The notes below the pieces were generated by a model. That model was given only the letters and a program-made list of their open reading frames with translations, did not search any database and was not told the DNA's origin. Below, one piece after another: positions 12,713 through 38,355 of a DNA stretch of 38,355 nucleotides. Positions within the stretch are counted from its first letter, which is position 1. Each line of letters starts with the position of its first letter. The stretch is from a virus. Taxonomy: Duplodnaviria > Heunggongvirae > Uroviricota > Caudoviricetes. Made by a program: the position numbers and the translations under genes. The stretch lies in the IMG/VR virus record IMGVR_UViG_3300031999_007842, positions 117,708 through 156,062 of that record, one strand, 5' to 3'.

Positions 12713-12909
12713 AAGAAGAAACTATTCCAATAGGAGGCAAGACTCTCAAGGAGATCAGGGAGATTGTTGATGATCTTCTGGTGAATCCTGCAGTGATCTC
12801 AGAACTTCATATCTATATTGATCACATTAGAATACTTCGTTTTATTGATCCCTCTCCTCATTTCAATCCTAGTTTGAGAGCCAAATATTTAGGTGGCAAT
12901 AAGAAATGA
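12697..12909 (+). CDS. Hypothetical protein
   Basis: 70 aa ORF; ATGA overlap with the next gene. Confidence 0.55.
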   Translation: MPFELKEETIPIGGKTLKEIREIVDDLLVNPAVISELHIYIDHIRILRFIDPSPHFNPSLRAKYLGGNKK

Positions 12910-13637
12910 AAGAAGCTGTAGTACTTGCAGGTGGGAAGGGACTCCGGTTAAAGGGCCAGACAGAAGTACCCAAGCCATTTTTAGTAATCAAGCCTGAAAC
13001 AGGCGAGACTTTACTTGAAGCTCAATTGAAATGGTTGGTAGCATATGATTTTGAGCATGTCATTCTAGCTACGTCACGAGAGAACTTTAGGTACATGAGA
13101 GTAAACTATGCAAAGTTTCTGAATGTAGCTTCCATAGATATCTCCGTAGAAGAAGAGCACCTGGGAACAGGTGGAGGACTCAAGAAAGCACTAGAGTTAG
13201 TAGAAGAACCTAATTTCTATTGTTTCAATGTAGATGATGTAGCCTTCTATGATCCCACGGAACTTTACCTAGCTCAACGCCTTCAAAATGTCGTACTCAT
13301 AAAGAAGGCTATTCTTCCGTTTGGGGCTGTAGAATTTGATCAAGACATGAAGGTAACTAACTTCGTGGAGAAGCCTGAAATAGATAAGTTCGTGAGCTGT
13401 GGGCACTATGTCTTCAGCAAGAAGTCTATCGAGGAACTACTTCCAGATGATGGAGACCTGGAACTTACACTTCTGAGAGACCTTGCTAAGATGGGATTCC
13501 TTTATGCAAATGTCTTGAAGGGAAAATGGATAACTATTAATACTTACAAAGAACTAATGCAAGCAAGAGGAAGAATGAAAATAGATGCGATACTTAGAGA
13601 AGATAAAGGACGAGAGACTCAAGAAAGCAGTTCTTAG
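12906..13637 (+). CDS. Sugar-phosphate nucleotidyltransferase (NTP_transferase family)
   Basis: AVVLAGGKGLRL, PKP, EEEHLGTGGGL, FNVDD, FVEKP. Confidence 0.92.
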   Translation: MKEAVVLAGGKGLRLKGQTEVPKPFLVIKPETGETLLEAQLKWLVAYDFEHVILATSRENFRYMRVNYAKFLNVASIDISVEEEHLGTGGGLKKALELVEEPNFYCFNVDDVAFYDPTELYLAQRLQNVVLIKKAILPFGAVEFDQDMKVTNFVEKPEIDKFVSCGHYVFSKKSIEELLPDDGDLELTLLRDLAKMGFLYANVLKGKWITINTYKELMQARGRMKIDAILREDKGRETQESSS

Positions 13638-20256: not shown

Positions 20257-20260
20257 GGGT

Positions 20261-20304: not shown

Positions 20305-20337
20305 ACTAAGTAATAAGAAATGGAGGTAGAAGGAAAG

Positions 20338-21463: not shown

Positions 21464-21480
21464 ATACAAGGTGAACTGAA

Positions 21481-22434: not shown

Positions 22435-22435
22435 C

Positions 22436-22606: not shown

Positions 22607-22610
22607 ACAA

Positions 22611-22627
22611 TCCCCCTTTTCTTTTTT
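22611..22627 (+). terminator. T-rich tract, possible archaeal terminator (may overlap a TTTTAAA promoter for the next gene)
   Basis: TCCCCCTTTTCTTTTTT just after a stop codon, in an intergenic gap. Confidence 0.4.
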
Positions 22628-22646
22628 AAATCAAGAGGAAACAAGT

Positions 22647-23892: not shown

Positions 23893-24313
23893 TTCGAAAT
23901 GGAATTTCAAGCGACTCTGGATGAAGATACCAGGAGAAATCATCCAAGGCTTAAAAGATGACATTCCTCCCTGTTGTGTCTTCTGGTACACTTTAGCTAA
24001 ACTTATGGCAATGATCCCCACTGCTATCGTGAGAACACTTCTAAAAGAGAAATATGCTACTGGCTTCTCATTAGACTTCTATGTATTCTGTAGAATGTTT
24101 GGAGGTAAGCTCAAAGTAGTGAAAGGAGAAAGAAGATTTGAAGTCCCTGTCTTTTGGAAGCTTCAATATTTTAGATGCCCACTTTGTCGTTGGGCAGGAA
24201 TCGAACATAAGCTAAGATGGAATACTGGCGCCTATTGGGATTGGTGTGGACCATATAAGAAATATTATTGGAAAAAATACAGAGAGAGGAAAGATCTCAA
24301 TGCTACAAAATAA
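23876..24313 (+). CDS. Hypothetical protein with IPPCC and CPLC motifs
   Basis: Trp/Cys-rich; ATG at 23876 is in frame with the track ORF. Confidence 0.6.
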   Translation: MYWIGDSKWNFKRLWMKIPGEIIQGLKDDIPPCCVFWYTLAKLMAMIPTAIVRTLLKEKYATGFSLDFYVFCRMFGGKLKVVKGERRFEVPVFWKLQYFRCPLCRWAGIEHKLRWNTGAYWDWCGPYKKYYWKKYRERKDLNATK

Positions 24314-25007
24314 AACAGAACTAATGATCCAACTAACCTACAAATGCAATCTCCAATGTAGGCATTGTTCTTATGGGGACCTAGTTGATAGACCAGATAT
24401 TTCATTTGAACAGATCGATCTCTTTCTGAAGAAACAGAAACCTGTCCTTGTTAAACTTAGTGGTGGAGAACCTACCATATCTCCACTCTTCTCTGATGCT
24501 ATTTATCTAGCAAAGAAATGCAATGCTAGGGTGATTTCTTTTACTAATGGAACAGGAAACCCTGAGATAGATCCAGATGCTTATTGGCTTTCTGTATATG
24601 GAAAAGCAGAATGGAATCATAAGATAGTGGGCAAGAATATTTGGAATCAAGTAGATAGTTTCATGAGATCTCACAAGGTAGACTTTCTATGCAGTCCTAT
24701 CTTTAATGAAGAACAAGTGAAATCTCTTGTTGAATTAAAAGAATATTCAGGAATTCCTCTAAGAGTTACACGGCTACTTCCTCATGGTCTAACCAAGGAG
24801 GCGTTAAGTCTTTCTGAACAGAGAAATTTAGTGGAGAAATACGGACTTAATGATCCACCTAATTTAGCTACTTGCAGTCTAGGTTATCCTCCATTCAAGT
24901 GTAATAGAAAAGCTTGTTTAAGGCCCGACAATACTCAGATAGTGTGTACTAGTATGGTAAGGGGAAAGAATCTTTGCCCATACTTCAGAAGGGATACAAA
25001 TGAATAA
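24300..25007 (+). CDS. Radical SAM enzyme with Cys-rich C-terminal (SPASM/twitch-like) extension
   Basis: CNLQCRHC (CxxxCxxC), LSGGEP; C-terminal CSLG-x5-C...ACLRPD...VC...LCP. Confidence 0.9.
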   Translation: MLQNKTELMIQLTYKCNLQCRHCSYGDLVDRPDISFEQIDLFLKKQKPVLVKLSGGEPTISPLFSDAIYLAKKCNARVISFTNGTGNPEIDPDAYWLSVYGKAEWNHKIVGKNIWNQVDSFMRSHKVDFLCSPIFNEEQVKSLVELKEYSGIPLRVTRLLPHGLTKEALSLSEQRNLVEKYGLNDPPNLATCSLGYPPFKCNRKACLRPDNTQIVCTSMVRGKNLCPYFRRDTNE

Positions 25008-27651: not shown

Positions 27652-28087
27652 ATTTCCCTGCTTAGCATTCAAAGAGAATAGAATGATATTGTCAAGAGAA
27701 GAACTAGTGACGAAACTTAATGAAGCTAATGAGGTAGGGAAAAGTTGTGAAGTTGGCTTCTATGCATTCTCTACTTGGTGGAATCTAGATCCTGTTAAAG
27801 AAAGTGTAGTTATTGACAAAGTAATCTATCGAGGTTCTCAAGAGGTCCTAGAAAAACTAGCTGAGAGGAAACTGAAGGAAGGAATAGAATCAACACTTAT
27901 CTTTGATGGAGATAGAACTTTACTCTTTACAAAGGAACCTCAAGAGAAACTCACGGATCTAATGCAAATCAAGGAGCCGGGAACAGAGGTTATTTTAGAT
28001 ATAGATAAGAAGTTCATCTTCCCAGGTTACAGGAATCTTAAAACAGGTCAGATGAGTAAGATAGTAAAGAAGTGGAAATTGGAATGA
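27644..28087 (+). CDS. Degenerate archaeo-eukaryotic primase (PriS)-fold protein, catalytic motifs lost
   Basis: FP...EEL...C.VGFYAF...VIDKVIY...LIFDG...D..K...PG.RNLKTG follows the viral AEP layout, but DxD and SG-x-G-x-H are absent. TTG start at 27644 with GGAGG 8 nt upstream (track start 27620). Confidence 0.5.
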   Translation: MLKFPCLAFKENRMILSREELVTKLNEANEVGKSCEVGFYAFSTWWNLDPVKESVVIDKVIYRGSQEVLEKLAERKLKEGIESTLIFDGDRTLLFTKEPQEKLTDLMQIKEPGTEVILDIDKKFIFPGYRNLKTGQMSKIVKKWKLE

Positions 28088-29127
28088 AGAAAGTAGTCTG
28101 GATCTCAGATTTCCCCTTAAGAGGTTCGTCCTTTGGTTCTGTAACCTATGATCTACTTACAAGGATGCCCAAAGAATACTACTTTGAAGTTCTAAGTCTA
28201 GGGTATGAGGGAATGCCACTGAAGATAGCAGACAACATAAGAGTCTTCGAACTCAAGAAGTCATACCAATTAAAATACTATTATTCAAAACTGAAACCAG
28301 ACATTTCTGTAGTTTTCCATTCATTTTGGATGCTCGAGTCAATGATTGATCAAATTGAAAATATGGCAGGAAAGAAGATCCTGTATCTCCCTTGTGAAGG
28401 AGAAGATATCCCATATCAATATCAGAAGCACTTTGCTCGCTTTGACACAATTTGCACGCCTTCAGAGTTCTCTAGAAAGATAATGAAGAAGTGTGGGATA
28501 AATGCAATAGTGATTCCACATGGCGTAGACACTAATTTCTTTGTACCTAAATCGAAGGAATGGCATGAGTTCAGATTTGGCTACATAGGACTTAACGATA
28601 TACGCAAGCAAATCCCTAGAGTAATGGAAGCATACTCTAGAGTTAAACAAGGAATGCTTGTAATAGCTGCTGATAATGTAGGGCACTATGATCTAACCCA
28701 GTTAGCCAAGCAATATCAAATCTCACCAATATTCATTGAAGCTAAACTTAACGGCCTAACTTTGAACAGAGAAGCTGTGCGAGACTTCCTACAATCACTT
28801 GATATCTATATCTCACCTGCTTCAGAATCATTTGGTCTTCCAGCACTTGAGGCTCAGGCTTGTGGTGTACCAGTCATAGCATCTTCTCATGGAGCTGCAC
28901 AAGAAGTGTTAGGAAATGGGGCAGTATATTGTGGAGTATCTGATTTTCTAGAGACTTCAGTAGGCAAGATAGGACTTATAAGTACTGCTGATCTCTATCG
29001 TAAGATGAGATTCATGGTACAAGTCAAGGATGCCTTGGATAGGACTTCAGTAAAAGCTCTCAATAATTCAAAGAAATGGTCCTGGGAGAACGCTGTCAAA
29101 AAGATGGTGGAGGTGTTTGAATCATAA
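28084..29127 (+). CDS. Glycosyltransferase family 4 (GT-B)
   Basis: WISDFP...FGSVT, IPHGVDT, RKQIP, ESFGLPALEAQACGVP. Confidence 0.92.
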   Translation: MKKVVWISDFPLRGSSFGSVTYDLLTRMPKEYYFEVLSLGYEGMPLKIADNIRVFELKKSYQLKYYYSKLKPDISVVFHSFWMLESMIDQIENMAGKKILYLPCEGEDIPYQYQKHFARFDTICTPSEFSRKIMKKCGINAIVIPHGVDTNFFVPKSKEWHEFRFGYIGLNDIRKQIPRVMEAYSRVKQGMLVIAADNVGHYDLTQLAKQYQISPIFIEAKLNGLTLNREAVRDFLQSLDIYISPASESFGLPALEAQACGVPVIASSHGAAQEVLGNGAVYCGVSDFLETSVGKIGLISTADLYRKMRFMVQVKDALDRTSVKALNNSKKWSWENAVKKMVEVFES

Positions 29128-29552
29128 GTACTCGTATAACTGGAACCTTTGCCAATCCTAGATTTTTAGGAGTAAAGGATATTGACCCTATTCTCAAGAA
29201 GCGGAATGACGAATTGACAGATGAAGAACTCTGGGAGAAGATTCTTGGTGGAGGATACGAGCAACCTTATTGCCCAGATTGCCACTTCAAAATGTTAGTT
29301 ACTCAGTTTATTATGGAATATCAACTAAGTTCACCGTACATGGTTGGAATAAATGCACCTTTTTCTGTAGGATCCTGGAACGTGCTAGCCAGTCCACCTA
29401 TTATAAAGATAGAGATACAATGCCCTAACTGTCGTCTTCTCATCAAGGGAGTTGGAATAGGTCTAAGATTTGAAGGGGACGCATATTATCTTGCGATACT
29501 CAAGGTAATCGAGAAACAACGAGCTGATATACCATGGCCCTTCCAGATGTAA
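29124..29552 (+). CDS. Zn-ribbon protein, start uncertain (ATA 29124, ATT 29181 or TTG 29214)
   Basis: CPDC...CPNC; the frame is open from 29121; strong GGAGGTG at 29109-29115. Confidence 0.6.
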   Translation: MSTRITGTFANPRFLGVKDIDPILKKRNDELTDEELWEKILGGGYEQPYCPDCHFKMLVTQFIMEYQLSSPYMVGINAPFSVGSWNVLASPPIIKIEIQCPNCRLLIKGVGIGLRFEGDAYYLAILKVIEKQRADIPWPFQM

Positions 29553-30040
29553 GGATACCGCCAATCTATAGAGAAGACTATGAAGTCCACTGGGGCAAGA
29601 TAGACTATAAAGGAAAGAGGGTTCTAGACACCGGCGCCTCAAATGGAGACACTGCAGACTTCTTTCTAAGACATGGAGCAAAGGATGTCGTTGCTGTTGA
29701 AGGCGATGATAAACTTTATCCTCTACTTGAATCAAATGCTAAGAAAATTACAGAAATAATTCCTATTAGTATGTGGATAGAGAATAAAGAGCAATGGCAG
29801 GAATTGATAAATATCTGGAAGCCAGATGTGATCAAGTCAGACTGTGAAGGTTGTGAGGCAACACTCTTTCTGATTGAAAATAACGTCTGGTGTCTTGTTC
29901 CTGAATATATCATTGAAGTACATGGGAAAGAGATAAGAGAACTCATGCTCAAGAAATGTCTTGAGAATAACTATGAGATAGTAAATATTAATGCCTGGGC
30001 AAAAGATGCAGCTACAATCATCTATGCTCGCAAGAAATAA
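29534..30040 (+). CDS. SAM-dependent methyltransferase (FkbM-like)
   Basis: VLDTGASNGDTA, VVAVEGD, DVIKSDCEGCE. Confidence 0.85.
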   Translation: MALPDVRIPPIYREDYEVHWGKIDYKGKRVLDTGASNGDTADFFLRHGAKDVVAVEGDDKLYPLLESNAKKITEIIPISMWIENKEQWQELINIWKPDVIKSDCEGCEATLFLIENNVWCLVPEYIIEVHGKEIRELMLKKCLENNYEIVNINAWAKDAATIIYARKK

Positions 30041-30076
30041 AAGGGTCTTGGGATGAATAGTAATGGAGGATCGAGA

Positions 30077-30364
30077 ATGAGTACCGAAAAGCCAGAACAA
30101 GAAAAAGTTCGCGAGGTACATGGCTTCCAGTGTATGTTCTGTGGAGAGATCCACACTACCAAAGATGAAGCAGAACTTTGCTGGCAGAGGCATGTCCAAT
30201 TTCAGTTTGAACCTTACTTCACAATGGATGATGAATTCCCTATAGAAGTTCTAGTCAAGAAGATAGAGGGAAATCGTTATACCACAATAGCAACTTACAG
30301 TCTAAAAGGAAAAGAGAAGGTAGACTTACCAGTAAAAGAGGAACCTGCAAATGAGCAAGAATAA
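30077..30364 (+). CDS. C2H2-like Zn-finger protein
   Basis: FQCMFCGEIHTTKDEAELCWQRH; GGAGG 7 nt before the ATG at 30077. Confidence 0.65.
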   Translation: MSTEKPEQEKVREVHGFQCMFCGEIHTTKDEAELCWQRHVQFQFEPYFTMDDEFPIEVLVKKIEGNRYTTIATYSLKGKEKVDLPVKEEPANEQE

Positions 30365-31721
30365 AGTATTAGAAGGATATGAAAAGCAGAAGACATCAGA
30401 TGGAAAAGTAATCATGGTGCCTTCAGATCAGAAAATAGAAGCCCTTAAGAAAGATATCAATACCCAAATACAGGCACAGAAGACCTACAAGGACATGAGG
30501 ATCTTGTGGCATTCAGTAGCTCCCTACATCAATTCAGGGTATGGAACCGTCACACGATACTTCATGACTGGACTACTTAATAGAGGCTTTGTAGGAATGG
30601 TCTCGGCCTATTATGGATTGCAGCCAGGAGGCATGATTAACTGGAAAGGCCTTTATGTCTTACCAGTACAAAAAACCAGCAGCGACCAATTAGGGTTTGC
30701 ATCTACAGCGGAGCATTACAAGAGATTCAAATGTGATCTAGGAATATTTCATGCTGACTTCTGGGTATCATACCAGTTCGCTAAGAGAATACCTCATTCA
30801 CTTTGCTATTCGCCAGTGGACCATGAAAAGTACCCCGGGAAATGGCTAGAAGTATTACGAGCTTATAAATGGGTTGCAGTTCCATCCATGCATGCACAGA
30901 AGGAACTTAAGAAGTGCGGACTTGAAGCAACCTTTGTTCCCCATGGAGTAGATACACAAGCTTATCACCCATTAGACCAAGCCCTTAGTAGAAAGGCTTA
31001 CACGCTCTCACCTGACAGGTTTGTAATAGGAATAGTGGCAGCTAACAATGATGATGAGACAAGGAAAGCTTGGGATGCTAATTTCCAGGCAATTAAGTAT
31101 TTCTTTGAACAGAATCCGGAAGCTGTGAAGGATACAGATGTGTTTGTCCACACTGACCCTGAGAATGAGAGAGGTAGAAACCTAGTGGAACTATCCAGAC
31201 AGATAGGCATTGAGAAGTCAATAATCTGGAATGATCGTTACACCGCTTCACTTTTGACCCTGCCAGAAAGTGCAATGTGCAAGCTTTACAATTGCTTCGA
31301 TGTTTTCCTATTACTATCGAGAAGAGAAGGCTTCTGTATTCCTGCTCTTGAAGCTCAGGCCTGTGGAGTACCATGCATACTTAATGACTTCTCAGCATTG
31401 TCTGAGAGAAATGACTTCGGACGATGTGGTTGGTTAACTAAACCTGCTACATACGTGTATTCACCACTTAACGCTATAACTTCAATCCCAGATCCCTACA
31501 AAGGTGCTGATGCATTAGCAGAAGCATATAAGAATGAGGCTAAGAGAAAGATGTTTGGCAAACGAGCATTGGCTTTTGCCAAAAGACAGACATGGGACAT
31601 TGCACTCGATAAACATATGATGCCTTTGCTAAAGAAGATCTTTGAAGAGATCCCAGGGATGGAAGAAAGAGCTAAGGACATGGAGAAACCTAAAGTACTC
31701 ACCACTGGTGAAAAGGAGTGA
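30351..31721 (+). CDS. Glycosyltransferase family 4 (GT-B)
   Basis: LWHSVAPYINSGYG, VPHGVDT, TRKAW, EGFCIPALEAQACGVP. Confidence 0.93.
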   Translation: MSKNKVLEGYEKQKTSDGKVIMVPSDQKIEALKKDINTQIQAQKTYKDMRILWHSVAPYINSGYGTVTRYFMTGLLNRGFVGMVSAYYGLQPGGMINWKGLYVLPVQKTSSDQLGFASTAEHYKRFKCDLGIFHADFWVSYQFAKRIPHSLCYSPVDHEKYPGKWLEVLRAYKWVAVPSMHAQKELKKCGLEATFVPHGVDTQAYHPLDQALSRKAYTLSPDRFVIGIVAANNDDETRKAWDANFQAIKYFFEQNPEAVKDTDVFVHTDPENERGRNLVELSRQIGIEKSIIWNDRYTASLLTLPESAMCKLYNCFDVFLLLSRREGFCIPALEAQACGVPCILNDFSALSERNDFGRCGWLTKPATYVYSPLNAITSIPDPYKGADALAEAYKNEAKRKMFGKRALAFAKRQTWDIALDKHMMPLLKKIFEEIPGMEERAKDMEKPKVLTTGEKE

Positions 31722-32530
31722 GAATAGGCTGGATATCCTCACGCACCTGGCCAACGTCAGTCGGTGGTGCTGAGGCAACAGATTTTACCTACATTCAGGA
31801 AGGAAAGAAAAGAGGACATGAAATTGCTTTCCTTCGCTCTTATGATCCAACATGTGATTTCTTTGTTCTCTCGAATGTTCATGATTGGCCAGTTAAGTTC
31901 GTTGAAGGAATCCTGAGAAATGCCTCTTATGCTCTATACAGGCATGATGCCTTCAATATAATATACCAGCAGCCATACTTCAAGAATCCTTTTGTTGTCG
32001 TCTTTATGTCTCCTCTCCAAAAAGATTTCTACTTACAGAGAATTAATGTCAAGAAATATTTTCTAACACCATGTGCCTTACAGGATCTAGACCAATACAA
32101 GACTGGAGAAAAGAAGACAGATCACTATGTATACATAGGAGATCTTCTTGATCACAAAGGACTTCGCAATATAATTCAATATGCAATAGAAAATCCTCAT
32201 GAGAAGTTTGTACTTTATGGTAAGAGGTTTCAGAGCCTTGACCTCCCGAAAAACACTCAATACCTAGGAGAACTTAAGCCTGAAGAGATCCCTGATATTT
32301 TGAACAAGGCGAAGCACTACATCTCTCTCCCTTCATTAATAGACACATGCCCTAGAACAGTAACTGGAGCTTACTTGAGTGGATGTAAGATAATCTATAA
32401 TAACAATGTAGGACTCTTCTCGTGGGATTGGGATTGGCCTACAATGACAAGAGTGAAACTCAAGCAAATTCTTATGGAAGCTCCAACTAAGTTCTGGGCG
32501 AATCTAGAAGGTGCATACACTGAGCGATGA
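31718..32530 (+). CDS. Glycosyltransferase (GT-B) with degenerate E-x7-E motif
   Basis: GGAEAT N-terminus, YIGDLLDHKG, DTCPRTVTGAYLSGC. Confidence 0.75.
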   Translation: MRIGWISSRTWPTSVGGAEATDFTYIQEGKKRGHEIAFLRSYDPTCDFFVLSNVHDWPVKFVEGILRNASYALYRHDAFNIIYQQPYFKNPFVVVFMSPLQKDFYLQRINVKKYFLTPCALQDLDQYKTGEKKTDHYVYIGDLLDHKGLRNIIQYAIENPHEKFVLYGKRFQSLDLPKNTQYLGELKPEEIPDILNKAKHYISLPSLIDTCPRTVTGAYLSGCKIIYNNNVGLFSWDWDWPTMTRVKLKQILMEAPTKFWANLEGAYTER

Positions 32531-33408
32531 ATCCAGAGGAGGAAATCCAGATGAAAGTGGCCCTATTCTTTGATGTGTATGGTTGGTGCTTCGAGACTGA
32601 ATGCGAGGGACTAAAGAAGTATTCAAAATATCAATGTGATACATTCGCTGGAGTTCCAGATGGAAGAATGGAGCTAAGTCCGGAAGTGCTAAGTGACTAT
32701 GACATTGTCTTCTTCTCATGCCCAGAACTATTCGCACCCTATCAAAAGTTTCCTAGAACAGCTAAGGTTGTTTGTGGAGTAGCCTCGTTGAATGGGGTGG
32801 GAGCAACAGATGGAAAAGCTGATGTTTACAATGGAGTATCTAGGGAGATTGCTGATTTAGTGCAAGCACGATTCCCACGGAAGAAGGTAGTGTATATCCC
32901 AGATGGTGTGGATCCTGAAATATTCAAACCTCTGAATCTAGAGCATTCGTTTACGATCGGATGGGCAGGAAACTTTCCGAGAAGAGAGAAACGAACTTAC
33001 CTTCTCAAGAGTCTTGATTATCCGGTCAAAATAAAGAGTGACCTTATCTATCAAACAGGCATGAACAAAATAGCGATGGTGCAGTTCTATAATTCTATAG
33101 ATATAGTCCTCCTTGTCTCTGCTTCAGAAGGATGCTCACTTGTACCTTTAGAAGCTGCTGCTTGCAAGGCTGCATTTGTAGGGACTGCGACAGGAACAGT
33201 ATTGGATTACATCCCTGCCCGTTGGTTAGTACCTTGCAATCCAGAAGAGATAGTAATCAAAGAACTTAATGAAAAGCTACACATGTTAGAGGATAATTCC
33301 AGTCTCCTCCTATCCTACAAGGAACAACTCCATAAGAAGGTACTTGAAGAGTACACCTGGAAGGCTATAGTCAAGCAACATGAAGCACTGTGGGAGAGTC
33401 TAATATGA
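32527..33408 (+). CDS. Glycosyltransferase family 4 (GT-B)
   Basis: IPDGVDPEIFKP, IGWAGN, EKR, EGCSLVPLEAAAC. Confidence 0.9.
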   Translation: MNPEEEIQMKVALFFDVYGWCFETECEGLKKYSKYQCDTFAGVPDGRMELSPEVLSDYDIVFFSCPELFAPYQKFPRTAKVVCGVASLNGVGATDGKADVYNGVSREIADLVQARFPRKKVVYIPDGVDPEIFKPLNLEHSFTIGWAGNFPRREKRTYLLKSLDYPVKIKSDLIYQTGMNKIAMVQFYNSIDIVLLVSASEGCSLVPLEAAACKAAFVGTATGTVLDYIPARWLVPCNPEEIVIKELNEKLHMLEDNSSLLLSYKEQLHKKVLEEYTWKAIVKQHEALWESLI

Positions 33409-33929
33409 GTAGAATCTGGTTCGATGATGGGCATGCCGATGTCTATACCAAGGCTTATCCTCTCATGAAAGCATATAAGCAGATAGGAATTGTTGCTGTA
33501 ATTACTGGGCAGGTTGGACAAAAGATGTATTGGGCAGGTGTACCCCCAAATGAAGAAGAGAGATGGATAGATCTCATGCCTATAGAGCATCTTCAAGAGT
33601 TGGTTACTAATGGTTGGAAGATAGCCAGTCATTCAGTAACTCATAGAGATCTCGATATGTTAACATTAGAGGAAGTCGAGAAAGAAATCCTAGATTCCAA
33701 GAAATGGATCCAAGACAAATTGAAAGTTGAACCTCTAGCTTTTGCTCCACCTAGACATAGAATAACTCCTGAGCAAGAGCAATTAGTTCTCAAGCATTAT
33801 CCCTATTGTAGAACCTGGCCCGGACAAGGAGAGTTTGTCTTCCATACTTTCACATACTTCGGAGAGACAACTAATGAACTAGAGAAGACTCTGCAACATC
33901 TCAAGATGGAGGGAATCAAATGCATCTGA
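33405..33929 (+). CDS. Polysaccharide deacetylase (NodB/CE4 family)
   Basis: IWFDDG, IASHSVTH, FAPP; ATGA-coupled start at 33405. Confidence 0.9.
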   Translation: MSRIWFDDGHADVYTKAYPLMKAYKQIGIVAVITGQVGQKMYWAGVPPNEEERWIDLMPIEHLQELVTNGWKIASHSVTHRDLDMLTLEEVEKEILDSKKWIQDKLKVEPLAFAPPRHRITPEQEQLVLKHYPYCRTWPGQGEFVFHTFTYFGETTNELEKTLQHLKMEGIKCI

Positions 33930-34846
33930 TATGGCTAGGAACACAGAGAGAAATCTATCCTATGAAGTTCTTGAGGCACTCTCTGGAGAAAATAGTACCT
34001 ATGTCTTGCTATGGAGAACCGTGTTTAAGGTCAGGCCAACGATGCGAGGAATTCAAAGAGGATTATGATCTTAAGGGTATATTGGATACTAACAAGGAAG
34101 CTGATGCTCTTATTGTCGATTTCAATAAAGGAACTACTTGGAACTCCTGGAAATACAAAAGTACAGACATCCTTAAGGTGGCCATAATCTACGATGCAAT
34201 CCAAGACTTCGCATCGTTTATACCTAGGTTACAAGAGTGGGAATTTGACATAGTTTGTCTAACCCAAGGTTCGAAAGAACTTACAGCTCTATATGAAACT
34301 CTTTATCCAAGCAAGTATTACACTCTTCCATTTTCAATAGACCCTGAAGTGTTCAAGTGTGAGGAGAGGAAGAGAAGAGATCTAGATTGTGTTTTGATAG
34401 GGGCAATGACTTCAGATGGATATCCATTTAGAATGAAGATCTGTGAATATCTCAACAATGAGAAGAAAGGACCGGTAGTAGCTTCAGATAAAAAACTTGC
34501 CATAGAAACTTACGTTCATTATCTCAACCGAGCTAAGATATCTCCTTTCTGCAGTAGCATCTACAGGTATGTGCTTGCCAAGTACTGGGAAGGAATGTTC
34601 TGTAAGACTTTGGTGATGGCTGATCAGCCGATGGAAGTACCAGGAACATTGCTCAGGTCGGGATATAATTATGTGGAAATATCGGCCAAGAACTTCAAGA
34701 GAGAGATAGATTACTATCTTGAGCATGAAGATGAACGTAATACTATAATTGAGAATGCCTACTCTTATGTAGTCCAGTATCATACTTCAGACATCAGAGC
34801 TAGACAGTTTAAGGAGATAATAGAGGAAGGTCTTGATTCAAGATGA
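33920..34846 (+). CDS. Glycosyltransferase, CgeB/Glyco_trans_1_2-like
   Basis: LPFSIDPEVFK, KYWEGMFCKTL, ERNTIIENAY..V.QYHT...RA. Confidence 0.82.
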   Translation: MHLIWLGTQREIYPMKFLRHSLEKIVPMSCYGEPCLRSGQRCEEFKEDYDLKGILDTNKEADALIVDFNKGTTWNSWKYKSTDILKVAIIYDAIQDFASFIPRLQEWEFDIVCLTQGSKELTALYETLYPSKYYTLPFSIDPEVFKCEERKRRDLDCVLIGAMTSDGYPFRMKICEYLNNEKKGPVVASDKKLAIETYVHYLNRAKISPFCSSIYRYVLAKYWEGMFCKTLVMADQPMEVPGTLLRSGYNYVEISAKNFKREIDYYLEHEDERNTIIENAYSYVVQYHTSDIRARQFKEIIEEGLDSR

Positions 34847-35799
34847 AGATAATCTGGATGGGAACTTATAGAGAAGATTCGTGTACCCGCTACTTCAGAA
34901 GAGAACTGGCAAGACAAGCTGAAGTCAAGTTCTATGGAGAGAATCCGTCGGGAGGAGGATCTCCAGATCATGGATACAGTTCCTCGGAGAACCACCAAGA
35001 ATGGATCGAGGAATATGACTTGGCTGAGATAGAAAAGGTTGAGAAACCAGACTGGTTTGTAGTCTATTGCTATGTAAGCGAACACTTCTTCTGGCCAAAA
35101 ATCAAGGTCAATTCTCTCAAGACTCCTATAGCTCTAATCATAAATGATCCTATCCAAGACAAAGATAGAATCCTAGAAAAACTAAGAACCTGGCAAGTAG
35201 AGAAAGCTTTCCTCGTCTATTGGAGTGGAGGCCTCTGTGAAATGTTTGAACAGAACTATCGTGCCCAGTACTACCATCTTCCGTACTCAATAGACCAGAC
35301 TATCTTCAAGCCATTGCAGGAGCCTAAGATTGCAGATGTGTGTTTCGTAGGGGTTACAGATAGTTATTGGTACCCACTGAGAAGTAAGATACTCAAAGAC
35401 ATAGAGCAGGGAGTCACAGAAGCAGGAATGAAATTAAAAGTAAGGATAGAGATCGGTCACAAGTTCTCTACTTCAGATTATGTAAAGTTCATCAACTCAG
35501 GATATATCTTTCCTGTCGATGGAGGACGCTATGAATATCCTGTAGCAAAGTACTTCGAAGTGATGGCTTGCAAGACTCTAGCACTTGGCCCTGAACCTCT
35601 TGATGCAAACCTTCTCCACTTCAAAAGTGGAGAGAATCTTGGTGTCCTTTCCCATCAGAATATAAGAGCAGACATTCGACAATATCTCTTGGATCATAAA
35701 GAGAGGGAAAGGATAAGTGAAAATGGATATAAGACCGTACTAAAGTACCATACTAATGAGATAAGAGCAAGATTCTTCTTGGAGATGCTAAAGAAATGA
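34843..35799 (+). CDS. Glycosyltransferase, CgeB/Glyco_trans_1_2-like (paralog of the upstream gene)
   Basis: LPYSIDQTIFK, KYFEVMACKTL, ERERISENGYKTVLKYHT..IRA. Confidence 0.85.
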   Translation: MKIIWMGTYREDSCTRYFRRELARQAEVKFYGENPSGGGSPDHGYSSSENHQEWIEEYDLAEIEKVEKPDWFVVYCYVSEHFFWPKIKVNSLKTPIALIINDPIQDKDRILEKLRTWQVEKAFLVYWSGGLCEMFEQNYRAQYYHLPYSIDQTIFKPLQEPKIADVCFVGVTDSYWYPLRSKILKDIEQGVTEAGMKLKVRIEIGHKFSTSDYVKFINSGYIFPVDGGRYEYPVAKYFEVMACKTLALGPEPLDANLLHFKSGENLGVLSHQNIRADIRQYLLDHKERERISENGYKTVLKYHTNEIRARFFLEMLKK

Positions 35800-36620
35800 T
35801 CAAGACACGGACCATAATAAAAGGAAACTATGTAGACATAGATCCTTCAGCAGACATAGAATGTAATGAACTAGAGATTGGCGACTGTGTCACTATCCTC
35901 AAAGATGTAAAGATTAGAGGCAATAAGATAAAGATAGGAAACTATGTGAGATTCTGCCCTAATTCTGAGATAGGAGGCGGTGGAGGAGTTCCCAATGTTC
36001 ACTCGAATGTTACAATAGGAAATAATGTTTTGGTCTGTGCTTATGTCCTAATCAACAATGCAAGAGAAGTTGTCATTGGAGATGATGTAGGCCTAGGACA
36101 GTACGTACATATCTGGACTCATGGAGGATGGCTTAACACTCTAGATGGATACCCTTGCAAATTCGCTCCTGTCAAGATTGGCTCACATATCTGGATTCCT
36201 GAAAGAACTTCTGTTTTGGCAGGAGTTACAATCGGAGATCATGTGATAGTGGGAAACAATTCATTGGTTGATAAGGACATACCAGGAGGATCCTTTGCTG
36301 CTGGAATTCCAGTCAAAATCTTAAAAGAAGGAGTGTTCCCAAAGCCTCTCTCACAAGAAGAGAAAGATAAACTTCTGGAGAGACTAGTGAAGGAATGGGT
36401 GGATGAACATCCCTTCCATATCCCAATTGCTGCTTACCTAGGAGGAGGAAGAATTAGATTCAAAGCTCTAATCTTTGATACAAACAGCATGGAGATCTCT
36501 GGAGAACTCGATGAGGAAGGTGAGGACTTAAGAGATCATCTGAGACGGAATGGAATCAAGTTCTTTACTGGAAAGCCATTCAGGTCTATGGTATATAACG
36601 GAGAAAGGGGATCTAATTAG
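35796..36620 (+). CDS. Hexapeptide-repeat (LbH) sugar O/N-acyltransferase
   Basis: Repeated IGxxV/T hexapeptides, IWTHGGW, APVKIG..IWI, AAGIPVK; C-terminal extension. Confidence 0.9.
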   Translation: MIKTRTIIKGNYVDIDPSADIECNELEIGDCVTILKDVKIRGNKIKIGNYVRFCPNSEIGGGGGVPNVHSNVTIGNNVLVCAYVLINNAREVVIGDDVGLGQYVHIWTHGGWLNTLDGYPCKFAPVKIGSHIWIPERTSVLAGVTIGDHVIVGNNSLVDKDIPGGSFAAGIPVKILKEGVFPKPLSQEEKDKLLERLVKEWVDEHPFHIPIAAYLGGGRIRFKALIFDTNSMEISGELDEEGEDLRDHLRRNGIKFFTGKPFRSMVYNGERGSN

Positions 36621-36622
36621 GT

Positions 36623-37246
36623 ATGAAGACTGCACTAGTTTTAGCAGCACATGGTGATGATGAGACTTCCATGGCAGGGACAATTCGCAAACTGGTCCTG
36701 AATAAATGGAAGGTTCATTTGATAGTTGGAACATTGGAAATAGGGAATATAAATAGAACTAGTGAGGAACTTGAACAAGCACTCAAATTGCTAGGAGTTT
36801 CTGGTTATGATCTTCTGGATTTCAGAAGCTGGGTCAGGGATGATAGAACCCTCATCTCTGTACTGGATCAGAAGATAGAGAATATAAAGCCTGATGTAAT
36901 CTTTTCTCATTGGCTGGGAGATACTCACCTTGAGCACCAGCTACTTACTAAGGCTGCAATGACAGCCATAAGAAGAACTGGGATTAGTCTTTTGATGTAT
37001 AAGGAACCAAACACAGGTGGACCTTCATCTGAAGCATTTAGACCTGATATCCTTATTGACATCACTGAAACTTATGATCTGAAGATCAGGACGTTGGAAG
37101 CCTATAAGAGCCAGATATCTAGATACAAGTTCTGGAGGCAGGCAACTGAAGGAGCTGCCAAGTATTATGGTTCAATGATGATGGTTCCCTATGCAGAAGC
37201 ATTTCAAGTTGTTAAGTTCATCTGGAATGAGGATTGGAAAATATGA
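36623..37246 (+). CDS. PIG-L/LmbE family deacetylase
   Basis: LAAHGDDE, DTHLEH, DITETYDLK..L..YKSQ, YAEAF. Confidence 0.9.
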   Translation: MKTALVLAAHGDDETSMAGTIRKLVLNKWKVHLIVGTLEIGNINRTSEELEQALKLLGVSGYDLLDFRSWVRDDRTLISVLDQKIENIKPDVIFSHWLGDTHLEHQLLTKAAMTAIRRTGISLLMYKEPNTGGPSSEAFRPDILIDITETYDLKIRTLEAYKSQISRYKFWRQATEGAAKYYGSMMMVPYAEAFQVVKFIWNEDWKI

Positions 37247-38355
37247 AGATACCTCCTGTCAAACTCTACTTTCCTCCTGAAGATATCGTGAAGATTCAAG
37301 AGGATGTCAAGAAGATCCTAGAAAGTGGCATGCTAACTCTAGGAGAGTATACAAGAAGATTTGAAAAGAAGTTTGCTCAGTTGAGCCAAACGAAGTTTGC
37401 AGTAGCAACCAATAGTGGAACAAGTGCTTTAGAGATTATTTTGCGTTCTTTACCTATCCCCAAATCTGCTATAGTACTTGTTCCCACCAATACATTCACT
37501 GCAACTGCTGCTACTGTAATACTTAGTGGGCATAAACTCAAGTTAATAGATGTTAATCCAGTCTCGGCTTGCCTAAGTCTAAAGGCAATAGAGGCCAACT
37601 TGAATCCAAAGCCTGCTGCTATAATAGTAGTCCATATCGGTGGGCTAATGGCACCAGAGATCTTTGAAATAAGAGAGTATTGTACATCGCATGGTATTTA
37701 CCTAGTAGAAGATGCTGCTCATGCTCAAGGTTCTATAGCAAGAGGTAGTCCTGCAGGATCATTAGGGATTGCGGGTGCGTTCTCATTCTATCCCACGAAG
37801 GTTATAACTTCCGGAGAGGGAGGAATGGTGGTCACTAATGACAAACACATCTATGAGGAAGGCCTCAGACTTAGAGATCAAGGTAAGGACAGTTTCCTTT
37901 GTAATGATATAGTAAGGATCGGAAATAATTGGAGACTTCCAGAGATCAGTGCTGCTGTGGGGCTTCGCCAACTAAAGCGATTGGATAAGATCATACAGGA
38001 TAGAACTGAGGCGGCTTCTTACTTTGAAGGAGGCTTAGCTGAGATTCCATCTATTGAAACAAGAGATACACCAAATGACTTTAGGAACAATTACTACAAG
38101 TATATCTTGTATACCAAGAACAGAGATAGACTTTCTAAGTTCCTGAACGAGCAAGGAATTTCATGCTCAGGTGCAGTATATGATCCACCATTACATCTCC
38201 AGCCTATCTATAGGAACTTACTGGGGATGAAGGAAGGAGATCTTCCCAACGCGGAGATGGTCAGCAAGACCATGTTATGTCTCCCTATGTTCAAGATGAC
38301 TCAAGAAGAGAAAGAGTATATAGTAAATAAAATAAAAGAGTGTGAAATGAAGTGA
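37243..38355 (+). CDS. DegT/DnrJ/EryC1/StrS family PLP-dependent sugar aminotransferase
   Basis: NSGTSAL, EDAAHAQG, SFYPTKVITSGEGG (Schiff-base Lys), G.NWRLPEISAAVG; ATGA-coupled start at 37243. Confidence 0.95.
   Translation: MKIPPVKLYFPPEDIVKIQEDVKKILESGMLTLGEYTRRFEKKFAQLSQTKFAVATNSGTSALEIILRSLPIPKSAIVLVPTNTFTATAATVILSGHKLKLIDVNPVSACLSLKAIEANLNPKPAAIIVVHIGGLMAPEIFEIREYCTSHGIYLVEDAAHAQGSIARGSPAGSLGIAGAFSFYPTKVITSGEGGMVVTNDKHIYEEGLRLRDQGKDSFLCNDIVRIGNNWRLPEISAAVGLRQLKRLDKIIQDRTEAASYFEGGLAEIPSIETRDTPNDFRNNYYKYILYTKNRDRLSKFLNEQGISCSGAVYDPPLHLQPIYRNLLGMKEGDLPNAEMVSKTMLCLPMFKMTQEEKEYIVNKIKECEMK

What the first reader, a model, noticed from the sequence alone, without database searches (positions are those of the whole stretch)
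28084..38355. 10-kb virus-borne glycan biosynthesis cluster directly after the DNA polymerase
Seen: six GT-B glycosyltransferase-like genes, an FkbM-like methyltransferase, a CE4 deacetylase, an LbH acyltransferase, a PIG-L deacetylase and a DegT aminotransferase, all translationally coupled; the cluster may continue beyond the window. No flippase, polymerase, initiating transferase or TM segment is evident, so the enzymes look soluble. Known: giant viruses such as Mimivirus and chloroviruses build their own virion glycans with amino-sugar aminotransferase, acetyltransferase, methyltransferase and GT sets, and T-even phages use GT-B enzymes on DNA. Inference: autonomous synthesis of a complex amino-sugar oligosaccharide for cytoplasmic glycosylation of virion proteins, or multi-sugar DNA hypermodification, given the position next to PolB. 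A cluster this large is unusual for an archaeal virus.
Basis: partly seen in the sequence, partly recalled or inferred. Interest (0 to 1): 0.8.

Follow-up and report, generated by a model that had tools for sequence, protein, structure and literature searches.

The report
Variable glycan island in archaeal virus
A roughly 172-kb head-tailed virus of sediment archaea carries about 18 membrane-free genes for making and joining sugars; its relatives keep this block at the same spot but reshuffle it, it most likely sugar-coats the virus particle, and the 'provirus' edge where the window stops is a trimming artefact, not a host junction.

Summary
Window 28084-38355 encodes six GT-B glycosyltransferases, an FkbM methyltransferase, CE4 and PIG-L deacetylases, an LbH acetyltransferase and a DegT aminotransferase. 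The genes are tightly coupled and none has a membrane segment.

Gene tables of a 171,794-bp contig, and a 35,434-bp contig laid on the window, show the cluster running on for about 4 kb: an extended SDR, two methyltransferases and a cytidylyltransferase. It then meets the tail genes, which lead to the first gene of the 156-kb record. The 'provirus' label is therefore a trimming artefact of a circular genome of about 171.65 kb. There is no host DNA, wzx, aglB or integrase.

Five relatives have an island at the same place. PolB, a 155-aa protein, GT4a, a small zinc-finger protein and GT4b are inherited with the backbone, and GT4a has no close cellular homologue. The genes behind this core turn over. 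The DegT here is 56% identical to Bathyarchaeia genes but only 31-35% identical to those of related viruses.

The most likely function is cytoplasmic glycosylation of virion proteins; this is inferred and untested. DNA hypermodification is unlikely. This scan has already noted similar islands in other archaeal-type viruses. I rate it a new variant of a known kind.

The parts
12906..13637 (+). Sugar-1-phosphate nucleotidyltransferase (243 aa). It lies 15 kb upstream of the island and is the likely supplier of an activated sugar.
   Evidence: PF00483 62.8 bits. Nearest NCBIfam models are HddC, ManC and archaeal GlmU N-terminal type, all below equivalog cut-offs. 73% identical in relative G001.
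28084..29127 (+). GT4a, the conserved core glycosyltransferase (347 aa, GT-B, E-x7-E motif).
   Evidence: PF00534 49.9 bits. The family has about 50 clusters at 32-100% identity, then drops to generic GT4 at 28%. No close relative in 185,579 species genomes or in GenBank phage records. 43-88% identical in five syntenic viral loci.
29214..29552 (+). 112-aa protein with two CxxC pairs (TTG start); semi-conserved, function unknown.
   Evidence: No Pfam hit. 48% identical in L023 and 31% in G001 and L009.
29534..30040 (+). FkbM-family SAM methyltransferase (168 aa), specific to this genome.
   Evidence: TIGR01444 45.6 bits against a cut-off of 37.7. No homologue at this place in the relatives; L023 has an FkbM-type gene elsewhere in its island.
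30077..30364 (+). Conserved 95-aa C-x2-C...C-x3-H zinc-finger protein. Its gene overlaps the GT4b start by 14 nt and it is part of the core.
   Evidence: Alignment A5: present in all six loci at 32-80% identity, with invariant C19, C22, C35 and H39. No Pfam family.
30351..31721 (+). GT4b, the second conserved core glycosyltransferase (456 aa, E-x7-E motif).
   Evidence: PF00534 44 bits. 47-76% identical in all relatives. Interrupted by a LAGLIDADG intein in relative L009.
31718..32530 (+). Compact GT-B-like glycosyltransferase (270 aa).
   Evidence: PF00534 only 20.5 bits. Atlas: feature score 0.99 and TM 0.86-0.90 to viral ~280-aa GT1-family clusters. 47% identical in L023 and 36% in L019.
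32551..33408 (+). GT4-like glycosyltransferase (285 aa).
   Evidence: PF13692 30.3 bits and PF00534 28.1 bits. 33% identical to a GT at another position in L023.
33405..33929 (+). CE4 polysaccharide de-N-acetylase (174 aa).
   Evidence: PF01522 62.2 bits. WFDDGH and HSVTH motifs are in the translation.
33920..34846 (+). CgeB/YkvP-like GT-B glycosyltransferase (308 aa), paralogue 1.
   Evidence: PF13524 44.5 bits. 31% identical to its neighbour.
34843..35799 (+). CgeB/YkvP-like GT-B glycosyltransferase (318 aa), paralogue 2.
   Evidence: PF13524 48.4 bits. Atlas neighbours are PF13524 clusters named spore-maturation CgeB/YkvP and viral clusters, TM 0.77-0.83.
35796..36620 (+). Left-handed beta-helix acetyltransferase (274 aa) with a C-terminal extension of about 95 aa; probably a sugar O-acetyltransferase.
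   Evidence: PF00132 53.5 bits. Best NCBIfam hit is WbbJ O-acetyltransferase. Best solved relatives are galactoside and maltose O-acetyltransferases.
36623..37246 (+). PIG-L/LmbE-family GlcNAc de-N-acetylase (207 aa).
   Evidence: PF02585 53.2 bits. Nearest are BshB1 and diacetylchitobiose deacetylase structures. AHGDDE and HLEH motifs are present.
37243..38355 (+). DegT-type PLP sugar aminotransferase (370 aa), of Bathyarchaeia-like origin.
   Evidence: PF01041 329.6 bits. The PLP lysine is present. Nearest solved structure is QdtB. 56% identical to Bathyarchaeia MAG proteins against 31-35% to the DegT of related viruses. Tree.
38352..38355 (+). GTG start of the next gene, a 293-aa extended SDR (NDP-sugar epimerase/dehydratase family). 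The island continues outside the record with a 203-aa methyltransferase, a 349-aa cytidylyltransferase-like protein, a 136-aa DUF2061 protein and a 186-aa methyltransferase.
   Evidence: Gene table of the 171,794-bp contig. The window ends ...GTGA. The 35,434-bp contig runs 18,560 bases past the window end.

Best explanation
What it is:
- The stretch is the first 10.3 kb of a viral glycan island of about 13.8 kb and 18 genes.
- The virus is a complete, circularly assembled head-tailed archaeal virus of about 171.65 kb from sediment. Its host is probably Bathyarchaeia.

Shown:
- The island lies between the replication module (RadA, XPF, PolB) and the converging tail module.
- It is not at a host junction.
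- Its enzymes are all soluble.
- It has two layers. The first is a core (GT4a, small zinc-finger protein, GT4b) inherited vertically with PolB and specific to this virus family. The second is a tailoring part that differs in every relative and draws on cellular, Bathyarchaeia-like glycan genes.

Inferred mechanism:
- Virus-made or host nucleotide sugars are altered by the SDR, the DegT aminotransferase, the methyltransferases and the acetyltransferase.
- The two core GT4 enzymes (MshA/BshA-like, probably HexNAc-transferring) start a chain directly on a cytoplasmic acceptor, with no lipid carrier.
- Four further GT-B enzymes extend the chain.
- PIG-L and CE4 strip N-acetyl groups to give glucosamine-type residues.
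- The most likely acceptor is a virion protein: the LamG-like (DUF2341) tail fibres or the capsid.
- The result would be particles with a strain-specific sugar coat.
For: Viral and complete, not a host junction:
- The gene table downstream of DegT reads SDR, methyltransferase, CTP-transferase-like, DUF2061, methyltransferase and three small ORFs. Then, on the minus strand, come genes of 101, 312, 145, 191 and 1537 aa (the last with DUF2341).
- The table read from the record's first gene reaches the same 1537-aa gene through a tail-tube gene.
- I predicted that the 35,434-bp contig would start at window 21482. It does, with bases 1-16874 and 0 mismatches, and 16,874 + 15,591 + 2,969 = 35,434.
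- 156,062 + 15,591 = 171,653, against contigs of 171,794 and 171,825 bp.
- There is no integrase.
- Relative G001 (120.7 kb, terminal repeats) is collinear and holds its island internally.

Head-tailed archaeal virus: HK97-type capsid protein; PolB nearest to haloarchaeal tailed viruses; long-form topoisomerase IB, RadA, XPF and LonB.

Soluble: no membrane segment in the island, and no protein with more than 3 hydrophobic segments in the 156 kb.

Core versus variable part: identities, contexts, the GT4a family gap, and no cellular relative.

Host-like origin of DegT.

Link to the virion:
- The island abuts the tail module in G000, G001 and L023.
- A seventh GT4 sits among the portal, LonB and fibre genes and is 74% identical in G001.
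- In L023 a GT2-type gene lies next to the large fibre gene.
- The 308- and 318-aa GTs resemble CgeB/YkvP enzymes. From my own knowledge, those glycosylate a protein shell from inside a cell.
- Solved analogues: giant-virus fibril clusters (PMC10117803).
Against: - No glycan, acceptor or expression has been observed. No RNA data set was available.
- Soluble GT4 enzymes also work on lipid-linked oligosaccharides in archaea (for example Agl16, a weak hit). Use of the host's dolichol carrier, flippase and AglB therefore cannot be excluded.
- No Ser/Thr-rich tail of the kind glycosylated in mycobacteriophage capsids was found in the structural proteins.
- The sugar made is not identified. DegT scores below every equivalog cut-off.
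- The LbH looks like an O-acetyltransferase.
- The SDR partner was not available as sequence. Its counterpart in the closest relative reads STCCVYG, without the Asp-Glu pair of 4,6-dehydratases.
- The host assignment rests on one gene family.
Confidence: 0.5

Rival explanations
1. Host-surface remodelling. The soluble viral enzymes feed into the host's own dolichol-linked glycan assembly at the cytoplasmic face. The host flippase and AglB then display an altered glycan on the S-layer. This blocks superinfection or stops progeny sticking to lysed cells.
For: - Part of the island is host-like: DegT is 56% identical to Bathyarchaeia genes, and the same DegT-SDR pair occurs in a Bathyarchaeia glycan locus alongside DUF354, ATP-grasp and UDP-sugar dehydrogenase genes that also occur in relatives' islands.
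- Hypervariability fits an arms race over surface receptors.
- The tail fibres carry lectin-like DUF2341 domains.
- A 2025 preprint reports that glycan genes dominate gene exchange between Nitrososphaeria and their viruses.
Against: - None of the membrane proteins typical of known seroconversion systems is present, and there is no initiating transferase.
- The two core GTs have no close cellular relatives.
- Extra GT genes sit inside the virion and tail modules.
Confidence: 0.27
2. Multi-sugar hypermodification of the viral DNA, as in T-even phages, explaining the position next to PolB.
For: - T4 DNA glucosyltransferases have the GT-B fold (own knowledge).
- The island follows PolB in all relatives.
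- The genome has nucleotide-pool enzymes (NDT-like, HD, MazG).
Against: - There is no ThyA-type hydroxymethylase or ThyX.
- No hit to the T4 alpha- or beta-glucosyltransferase families appeared in full Pfam scans of every GT.
- Seven GT-B enzymes plus deacetylases, methyltransferases and an acetyltransferase far exceed any known DNA sugar modification.
- The gene content changes between close relatives while PolB stays conserved.
Confidence: 0.06
3. The enzymes make a soluble or secreted glyco-product rather than decorating a macromolecule of virus or host. Examples would be a low-molecular-weight glycoside or thiol of the bacillithiol/mycothiol type, or a storage or protective polysaccharide.
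For: GT4 enzymes and PIG-L score best against MshA/BshA and BshB models. A GT4 followed by a PIG-L deacetylase is the opening of the mycothiol, bacillithiol and GPI pathways (own knowledge).
Against: - All scores are far below equivalog cut-offs, for example BshA 37 bits against 274 and BshB1 56 bits against 183.
- No cysteine ligase is present.
- Six or seven GTs are not needed for such products.
- The gene content is hypervariable.
Confidence: 0.08
4. The genes are host genes, and the window spans a provirus-host junction.
For: IMG/VR classes the record as a provirus, and both record ends fall exactly on stop codons. DegT is host-like.
Against: - The downstream genes are more soluble sugar enzymes and then the tail module, which leads to the record's own first gene.
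- The lengths close a circle of about 171.65 kb.
- There is no integrase.
- The same island is internal in a relative with terminal repeats.
- GC content is uniform.
Confidence: 0.02

Closest known systems
Fibril glycosylation gene clusters of Megavirinae giant viruses (Notaro et al. 2022, PMC10117803; Mimivirus viosamine route R141/L136/L142 from my own knowledge)
   Same: - Virus-encoded clusters of 6-33 genes that combine nucleotide-sugar enzymes (SDR or dehydratase, DegT-type aminotransferase, acetyl- and methyltransferases) with several glycosyltransferases.
- Bacteria-like sugars.
- Gene content that is specific to each clade.
- Action in the cytoplasm without the host's membrane pathway.
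   Different: - The host is archaeal and the virus is a tailed HK97-type virus of 172 kb.
- The island has a fixed place between PolB and the tail genes, and a vertically inherited two-GT core.
- There is no chemical evidence here.
Mycobacteriophage virion glycosylation operons (Che8, Corndog, Myrna; Freeman et al. 2023, known to me from memory; cited in PMC12363180 and PMC12691614)
   Same: A tailed virus with its own soluble glycosyltransferases and methyltransferases that glycosylate capsid and tail proteins in the cytoplasm.
   Different: - Those operons are smaller (a few genes).
- Their acceptor is a C-terminal Ser/Thr-rich extension, which I did not find here.
- Their hosts are bacterial.
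'LPS' or cell-wall sugar gene clusters of T4-like cyanophages (for example Prochlorococcus phage P-SSM2, 24 genes; Sullivan et al. 2005, own knowledge)
   Same: Large, variable sets of sugar-nucleotide and glycosyltransferase genes in a big tailed virus, with an unknown target.
   Different: Those viruses have bacterial hosts and partly membrane-associated enzymes. No conserved virus-specific core has been described for them.
Bacterial O-antigen/capsule loci and archaeal agl N-glycosylation loci
   Same: A hypervariable gene set at a fixed locus, the same enzyme families, and exchange by horizontal transfer. A Bathyarchaeia locus shares the DegT-SDR pair.
   Different: Cellular loci contain an initiating polyprenyl-phosphate transferase, a flippase and a polymerase or oligosaccharyltransferase with many membrane helices. 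None is present here.
Single glycosyltransferase genes of archaeal viruses (STIV A197; GT4 genes near tail or capsid genes in Poseidoniales viruses, PMC11706807)
   Same: An archaeal virus-encoded GT placed near structural genes and read as acting in virion glycosylation.
   Different: Those are one or two genes with no sugar-nucleotide pathway. Here there are about 18 clustered genes plus two more GTs in the virion modules.
T-even phage DNA glucosylation (alpha- and beta-glucosyltransferase acting on hydroxymethylcytosine)
   Same: Phage-encoded GT-B fold enzymes.
   Different: That system needs a hydroxymethylase and uses one or two dedicated GTs. Neither the hydroxymethylase nor those GT families are found here.

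Membership tests
Virus-encoded autonomous virion-glycosylation cluster (giant-virus or mycobacteriophage type) | Several glycosyltransferases clustered with nucleotide-sugar modifying enzymes on a viral genome | tested here: met
   Six GT-B enzymes plus DegT, SDR, methyltransferases, LbH, PIG-L and CE4 in one co-directional block. The viral genome closes on itself.
Virus-encoded autonomous virion-glycosylation cluster (giant-virus or mycobacteriophage type) | Enzymes are soluble, with no lipid-carrier, flippase or oligosaccharyltransferase step | tested here: met
   Maximum 19-residue hydropathy is below 1.7 in all island proteins. No protein with more than 3 hydrophobic segments in the 156 kb. 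Only a small DUF2061 protein (weak hit) lies in the remaining 15.6 kb.
Virus-encoded autonomous virion-glycosylation cluster (giant-virus or mycobacteriophage type) | Gene content differs between clades of related viruses | tested here: met
   Five syntenic relatives have different inner genes. Core proteins are 43-88% identical; the other island genes are 27-47% identical or absent.
Virus-encoded autonomous virion-glycosylation cluster (giant-virus or mycobacteriophage type) | Glycan demonstrably attached to virion proteins | not testable with these tools
   This needs particles or co-expression plus mass spectrometry. The only evidence here is positional.
Cellular surface-polysaccharide or N-glycosylation locus at a provirus-host junction | Wzx-type flippase, Wzy polymerase, AglB/STT3 or an initiating polyprenyl-phosphate transferase nearby | tested here: not met
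   Gene tables for 8.9 kb downstream and 10 kb beyond the record's other end show none. There are no multi-pass membrane proteins.
Cellular surface-polysaccharide or N-glycosylation locus at a provirus-host junction | Integrase or attachment repeats, and flanking cellular genes | tested here: not met
   No PF00589 match, with the control positive in 14 of 14 genomes. No terminal direct repeats. The flanks are viral tail genes.
Phage DNA sugar hypermodification (T-even type) | Pyrimidine hydroxymethylase (ThyA-like) or another route to a hydroxymethyl base | tested here: not met
   PF00303 and PF02511 are absent, with positive controls. The Tet/JBP search had no positive control and is uninformative.
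Phage DNA sugar hypermodification (T-even type) | Glycosyltransferase of the T4 alpha- or beta-glucosyltransferase families | tested here: not met
   Scans of every island GT against all of Pfam returned only GT1/GT4-type families.
Gtr-type phage seroconversion cassette | GtrA flippase, GtrB bactoprenol glucosyltransferase and a membrane type-specific GT | tested here: not met
   No membrane proteins in the island. No GT2 match in the 156 kb.
CAZy GT4 / Pfam Glycos_transf_1 (for GT4a and GT4b) | C-terminal Rossmann domain with the E-x7-E motif, and a score above the gathering threshold | tested here: met
   49.9 and 44 bits against a threshold of 26.4. ESFGLPALE and EGFCIPALE are in the translations.
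DegT/DnrJ/EryC1 sugar aminotransferase | Full-length match and the PLP-binding lysine (not the histidine of the dehydrases) | tested here: met
   329.6 bits over profile positions 6-359 of 360. Lysine in SFYPTKVITSGEGG. Substrate position (C3 or C4) is undetermined: QdtB is the best structure, PseC the best model, both below cut-off.
Textbook 4-amino-4,6-dideoxyhexose route (4,6-dehydratase, aminotransferase, N-acetyltransferase) | A 4,6-dehydratase with the catalytic Asp-Glu pair next to the aminotransferase | tested here: inconclusive
   The 293-aa SDR after DegT is known only from its Pfam families, and its sequence could not be recovered. The SDR of the closest relative reads STCCVYG and G001's reads STSEVYG (LegB-like, 213 bits against 475).
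Bacillithiol/mycothiol pathway | BshA/MshA and BshB/MshB at equivalog level, plus a cysteine ligase | tested here: not met
   All scores are far below cut-offs. No ligase appears in the gene tables.

The most novel reading that the evidence does not exclude
The island is the viral counterpart of an O-antigen locus. It has a virus-specific, vertically inherited priming module (GT4a, a small zinc-finger protein and GT4b) that starts a glycan directly on a virion protein. It also has a freely exchangeable tailoring module captured from the glycan loci of the Bathyarchaeia host. Each virus strain would thus dress its tail fibres or capsid in a different, host-like sugar coat, made wholly in the cytoplasm without a lipid carrier. 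This would be the first system of its kind described for archaeal viruses. It would imply that glycan mimicry or glycan-based strain identity is a major axis of virus-host and virus-virus conflict in sediment archaea.
Probability: 0.3. Interest if true: 0.75.

Novelty: new variant of a known kind. Interest (0 to 1): 0.6.

Why it matters
Archaeal viruses are known to carry single glycosyltransferase genes. I found no paper describing a large, self-contained and hypervariable glycan locus with a conserved core in them.

- If the glycan goes onto the particle, tailed archaeal viruses would join giant viruses and mycobacteriophages as viruses that build their own coat sugars. That would give a handle on receptor recognition and strain competition among uncultured sediment archaea.
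- The virus-specific GT4a family is a ready marker for finding this virus group.
- The result shows how provirus-trimming software can cut a complete virus exactly at its host-like sugar genes. This hides such islands from virus catalogues.

Tried and rejected
Searches that gave nothing or little:
- Exact look-up of DegT from its TTG start found nothing. The ATG-start neighbour worked.
- The metagenome scan with DegT returned no relative.
- Two viral-contig scans with PolB returned nothing or only G001.
- A paper search for the MAG accession found nothing.
- The genome search could not take the fetched loci as handles.
- The sequence of the 293-aa SDR after DegT could not be recovered. The homology search from the relative's SDR returned other viruses' proteins, and the 293-aa candidate P0123 came from an unrelated context.
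- The Tet/JBP family search had no positive control.
- No RNA holder was listed.

Models and comparisons that were unusable:
- Profile comparison of the 270-aa family with the GT4a family gave 4.7% probability.
- My own AlphaFold models were too poor for fold searches (pLDDT 43.7 and 57.1). No fold search was run and Atlas models were used instead.
- The complex prediction of GT4b with the 95-aa zinc-finger protein gave no verdict.

Laid contigs:
- Run X3 gives no cover over window 34688-36523, which means nothing.
- A single low-depth contig in X2 joins 29622 to 37780 with 22 foreign letters and only 21 letters on one side. I treat it as chimeric or from another organism.

Other checks:
- A scan for Ser/Thr-rich tracts in structural proteins found nothing distinctive.

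Readings considered and dropped:
- Bacillithiol- or mycothiol-type thiol synthesis (scores far below cut-offs).
- Legionaminic or pseudaminic acid synthesis (no NeuB-type synthase in any gene table).

Full report
**1. What the window is**

All sizeable ORFs of the 38-kb window lie on the + strand, and GC is even at 0.37-0.43. The window is the last 38 kb of a 156,062-bp IMG/VR record labelled 'provirus' with CheckV completeness 100.

The record encodes:
- an HK97-type major head protein;
- a family B polymerase, closest at about 25% identity to those of haloarchaeal tailed viruses;
- a long, eukaryote-type topoisomerase IB, ribonucleotide reductase and ClpP;
- RadA and XPF;
- an archaeal LonB and large DUF2341 (LamG-like) proteins in the minus-strand virion arm;
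- a tRNA cluster.

It is a large head-tailed archaeal virus. The three runs that hold half or more of the sampled words of the stretch are labelled sediment metagenomes.

**2. The observation**

- Five glycosyltransferases pass Pfam thresholds. Three are GT4-type Glycos_transf_1 and two are Glyco_trans_1_2.
- The sixth (270 aa) is below threshold in Pfam. The ESM Atlas holds a confident model of it, and its neighbours are compact viral GT-B proteins (score 0.99, TM 0.86-0.90).
- The 308- and 318-aa paralogues sit among CgeB/YkvP-type 'spore maturation' glycosyltransferases and viral clusters.
- FkbM is confirmed by TIGR01444 above its cut-off.
- Catalytic motifs of GT4, CE4, PIG-L and DegT are intact in the translations.
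- Nine of 13 junctions are overlaps of 4-19 nt, and no protein has a membrane-like segment.

Two refinements follow. The LbH enzyme resembles sugar O-acetyltransferases (WbbJ, maltose or galactoside type), not the N-acetyltransferases of amino-sugar routes. The DegT enzyme is a genuine lysine-bearing aminotransferase whose substrate position cannot be read off: the best structure is QdtB and the best model is PseC, both below equivalog level.

**3. Is this a host junction?**

The record starts exactly at the stop codon of a minus-strand gene and ends exactly at the DegT stop. That is how trimming software cuts.

An exact look-up of the PIG-L protein found a 171,794-bp contig.
- After DegT come a 293-aa extended SDR (its GTG start overlaps the DegT stop at window 38352), a methyltransferase, a 349-aa cytidylyltransferase-like protein, a small DUF2061 protein, another methyltransferase and three small ORFs.
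- The strand then switches to genes of 101, 312, 145, 191 and 1537 aa, the last with DUF2341.

The look-up of the record's first gene (157 aa) gave the same contig read from the other side: 126 aa, a tail-tube protein, 112, 655 and 156 aa, the same 1537-aa gene, then 191, 145 and 312 aa. The two ends of the 'provirus' are therefore joined by 15,591 bp of viral genes.

From these tables I predicted the position of a 35,434-bp contig from another assembly. It should begin at window 21482 and cover 16,874 bases of the window. Laying that run's contigs gave exactly this, with no mismatch: 16,874 + 15,591 + 2,969 = 35,434.

The unique length is 156,062 + 15,591 = 171,653 bp. The two full contigs on record are 171,794 and 171,825 bp, which is 141 and 172 bp longer. 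That is what a circular assembly with a terminal overlap would give. I did not see the ends themselves, so the overlap is an inference.

There is no tyrosine integrase and no end repeat in the record. No protein in the 156 kb has more than three hydrophobic segments. The refuting scenario is therefore rejected and the provirus label is an artefact. The trimming most likely happened because the sugar genes look cellular.

**4. Relatives**

A 120,717-bp IMG/VR genome with terminal repeats (G001) is collinear with this virus over its whole length. It has its island internally, followed by the minus-strand virion arm.

The first glycosyltransferase, GT4a, defines a sharply bounded family. About 50 clusters fall between 100% and 32% identity, and the next hits are generic GT4 proteins at 28%. 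No close relative exists in one genome for each of 185,579 prokaryote species (best 28%) or in deposited phage and archaeal virus records.

All contexts I could open share one order: RadA, XPF, (radical SAM), PolB, a protein of about 150 aa, GT4a, small proteins, GT4b, a run of sugar genes, then the tail genes where the contig reaches that far. These are a 125-kb contig of an NCBI MAG, a 74.6-kb JGI contig, a 122-kb Logan contig and an 8-kb IMG/VR fragment.

Identities of GT4a, the 95-aa zinc-finger protein and GT4b track those of PolB:

| Protein | G001 | L020 | L019 |
|---|---|---|---|
| PolB | 74% | 53% | 35% |
| GT4a | 76% | 62% | 43% |
| 95-aa zinc-finger protein | 60% | 49% | 30% |
| GT4b | 74% | 64% | 47% |

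The genes behind them behave differently. Even in the closest relative L023, whose GT4a is 88% identical, they are only 27-47% identical, sit in a different order, or are absent.

The inner genes differ in each relative:
- G001: a GT2, a methyltransferase, a FabG-like SDR, an LbH, a DegT and a LegB-like dehydratase.
- L020: an intein-bearing GT2, a 922-aa GT-GT-sulfatase fusion, a PAPS reductase-family protein and an ATP-grasp enzyme.
- L019: a UDP-sugar dehydrogenase, an ATP-grasp and a luciferase-like enzyme.
- L023: two CE4 genes, DUF354, PIG-L, FkbM and a SIS-domain protein.

The locus thus behaves like a surface-antigen locus, with a fixed place, a fixed core and a free interior.

**5. 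Where the variable genes come from**

The DegT here is 53-57% identical to many cellular proteins. All those named by NCBI are labelled Bathyarchaeia or Bathyarchaeota. It is only 31-35% identical to the DegT genes of related viruses.

In a maximum-likelihood tree it sits inside the clade holding the Bathyarchaeia-labelled proteins (support 98/94). The G001 and L020 enzymes form a separate clade (100/100) and L019 lies elsewhere.

In one Bathyarchaeia contig the homologue is followed by a 297-aa extended SDR, the same pair as here. It is preceded by methyltransferase, UDP-sugar dehydrogenase, DUF354 and ATP-grasp genes, families that also occur in the relatives' islands.

This points to repeated capture from cellular glycan loci and makes Bathyarchaeia the best host guess. 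One gene family is thin evidence for a host.

**6. What it does**

Shown: a soluble, co-directional, tightly coupled set of enzymes for altering activated sugars and for joining and trimming sugar residues. It belongs to the virus and is conserved in place across a virus family.

Inferred:
- The chain is started by the two core GT4 enzymes. Their nearest models are retaining HexNAc/hexose transferases of the MshA/BshA type, at family level only.
- Four more GT-B enzymes extend it.
- PIG-L and CE4 de-N-acetylate it.
- The methyltransferases and the LbH enzyme methylate and O-acetylate it.
- DegT with its SDR partner supplies an amino sugar.
- A nucleotidyltransferase 15 kb upstream and the cytidylyltransferase-like protein downstream could supply activated donors.

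I favour virion proteins as the acceptor for five reasons:
- (a) No carrier, flippase or transferase for the outside of the membrane is encoded.
- (b) The island abuts the tail module in all three genomes where the end is visible.
- (c) A seventh GT4 lies between the portal/LonB genes and the DUF2341 fibre genes and is 74% identical in G001. In L023 a GT2-type gene lies beside the giant fibre gene.
- (d) CgeB-type enzymes are known, from my own knowledge, from glycosylation of a protein shell from within a cell.
- (e) The solved precedents for soluble viral GT sets (giant viruses, PMC10117803; mycobacteriophages, from memory) all decorate particles.

None of this is direct evidence. Host-surface remodelling through the host's own carrier and exporter stays a serious rival.

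DNA modification is unlikely. There is no hydroxymethylase and no T4-type GT family. The number and turnover of the enzymes also do not fit.

**7. Comparison with what is known, and novelty**

Papers on archaeal viromes mention single glycosyltransferases near capsid or tail genes. They also make general statements and report an enrichment of glycan genes among virus-host transfers in Nitrososphaeria. I found no description of a large variable island with a conserved core in archaeal viruses. Published Bathyarchaeia viruses are small and unrelated in content.

Within this scan, similar islands have already been noted in about eight other archaeal-type viruses. The phenomenon is recurrent, and this is not its first sighting.

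I class it as a new variant of a known kind.

Noticed in passing
L009:3974-6310 (+), IMG/VR fragment of a relative: The GT4b orthologue is 778 aa because a 350-aa LAGLIDADG-type intein (starting with Cys, ending ...WSGQ before Thr) is inserted exactly between AANNDEE and TRKAWD, at the start of the C-terminal Rossmann domain. Inteins in glycosyltransferases are unusual, and this one suggests the enzyme is indispensable to the virus.
   Followed up: partly
L020:12881-14656 (+) and L021:3935-5710 (+): A second, different island enzyme in another relative also carries an intein with a LAGLIDADG domain. The host enzyme is an Anp1/GT2-type glycosyltransferase of 591 aa.
   Followed up: partly
G000 ends (window 38353-38355 and G000:C1:1-3): The IMG/VR 'provirus' call removed 15.6 kb of genuine viral genes (five more sugar genes and ten tail-module genes) from a genome of about 171.65 kb that assembles as a circle. 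No integrase is present.
   Followed up: yes
L020:15068-17836 (+) and L020:17833-18681 (+): This relative has a 922-aa fusion of GT1-like, GT2-like and sulfatase-family domains, followed by a PAPS-reductase-family gene. That hints at a sulfated or phospho-decorated glycan in that virus.
   Followed up: no
L008:16825-17580 (+), G001: A papain-family (C1) cysteine protease gene closes the island of G001 just before the tail module. A FabG-like 3-oxoacyl reductase (275 bits) also sits inside that island and could make a hydroxyacyl group for an amino sugar.
   Followed up: no
G000:C1:2909-3976 (-) versus G001:C1:92071-92964 (-): The major head protein of this virus has an insertion of about 55 residues, rich in Ala, Ser and Thr, that the otherwise 69%-identical G001 protein lacks. 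It could be a surface loop or decoration site.
   Followed up: no
window 30077-30364 (+): A 95-aa protein with invariant C-x2-C...C-x3-H is conserved between the two core glycosyltransferases in all six loci. It matches no family and its role (adaptor, acceptor or regulator) is open.
   Followed up: partly
window 23422-25007 (+); L019:4942-5951; L020:143-559: Small radical-SAM and TYW3-like genes recur just upstream of PolB in relatives, so this trio is part of the conserved backbone.
   Followed up: no
window 20000-38355, runs X2 and X3: Two other sediment samples hold strains at least 95% alike across the island. The differences are almost all transitions (for example 106 of 116 in X2), so the island is maintained in natural populations.
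   Followed up: partly
whole G000 record: A 156-kb virus with its own ribonucleotide reductase, MazG, HD and NDT-like genes has neither ThyA nor ThyX.
   Followed up: partly
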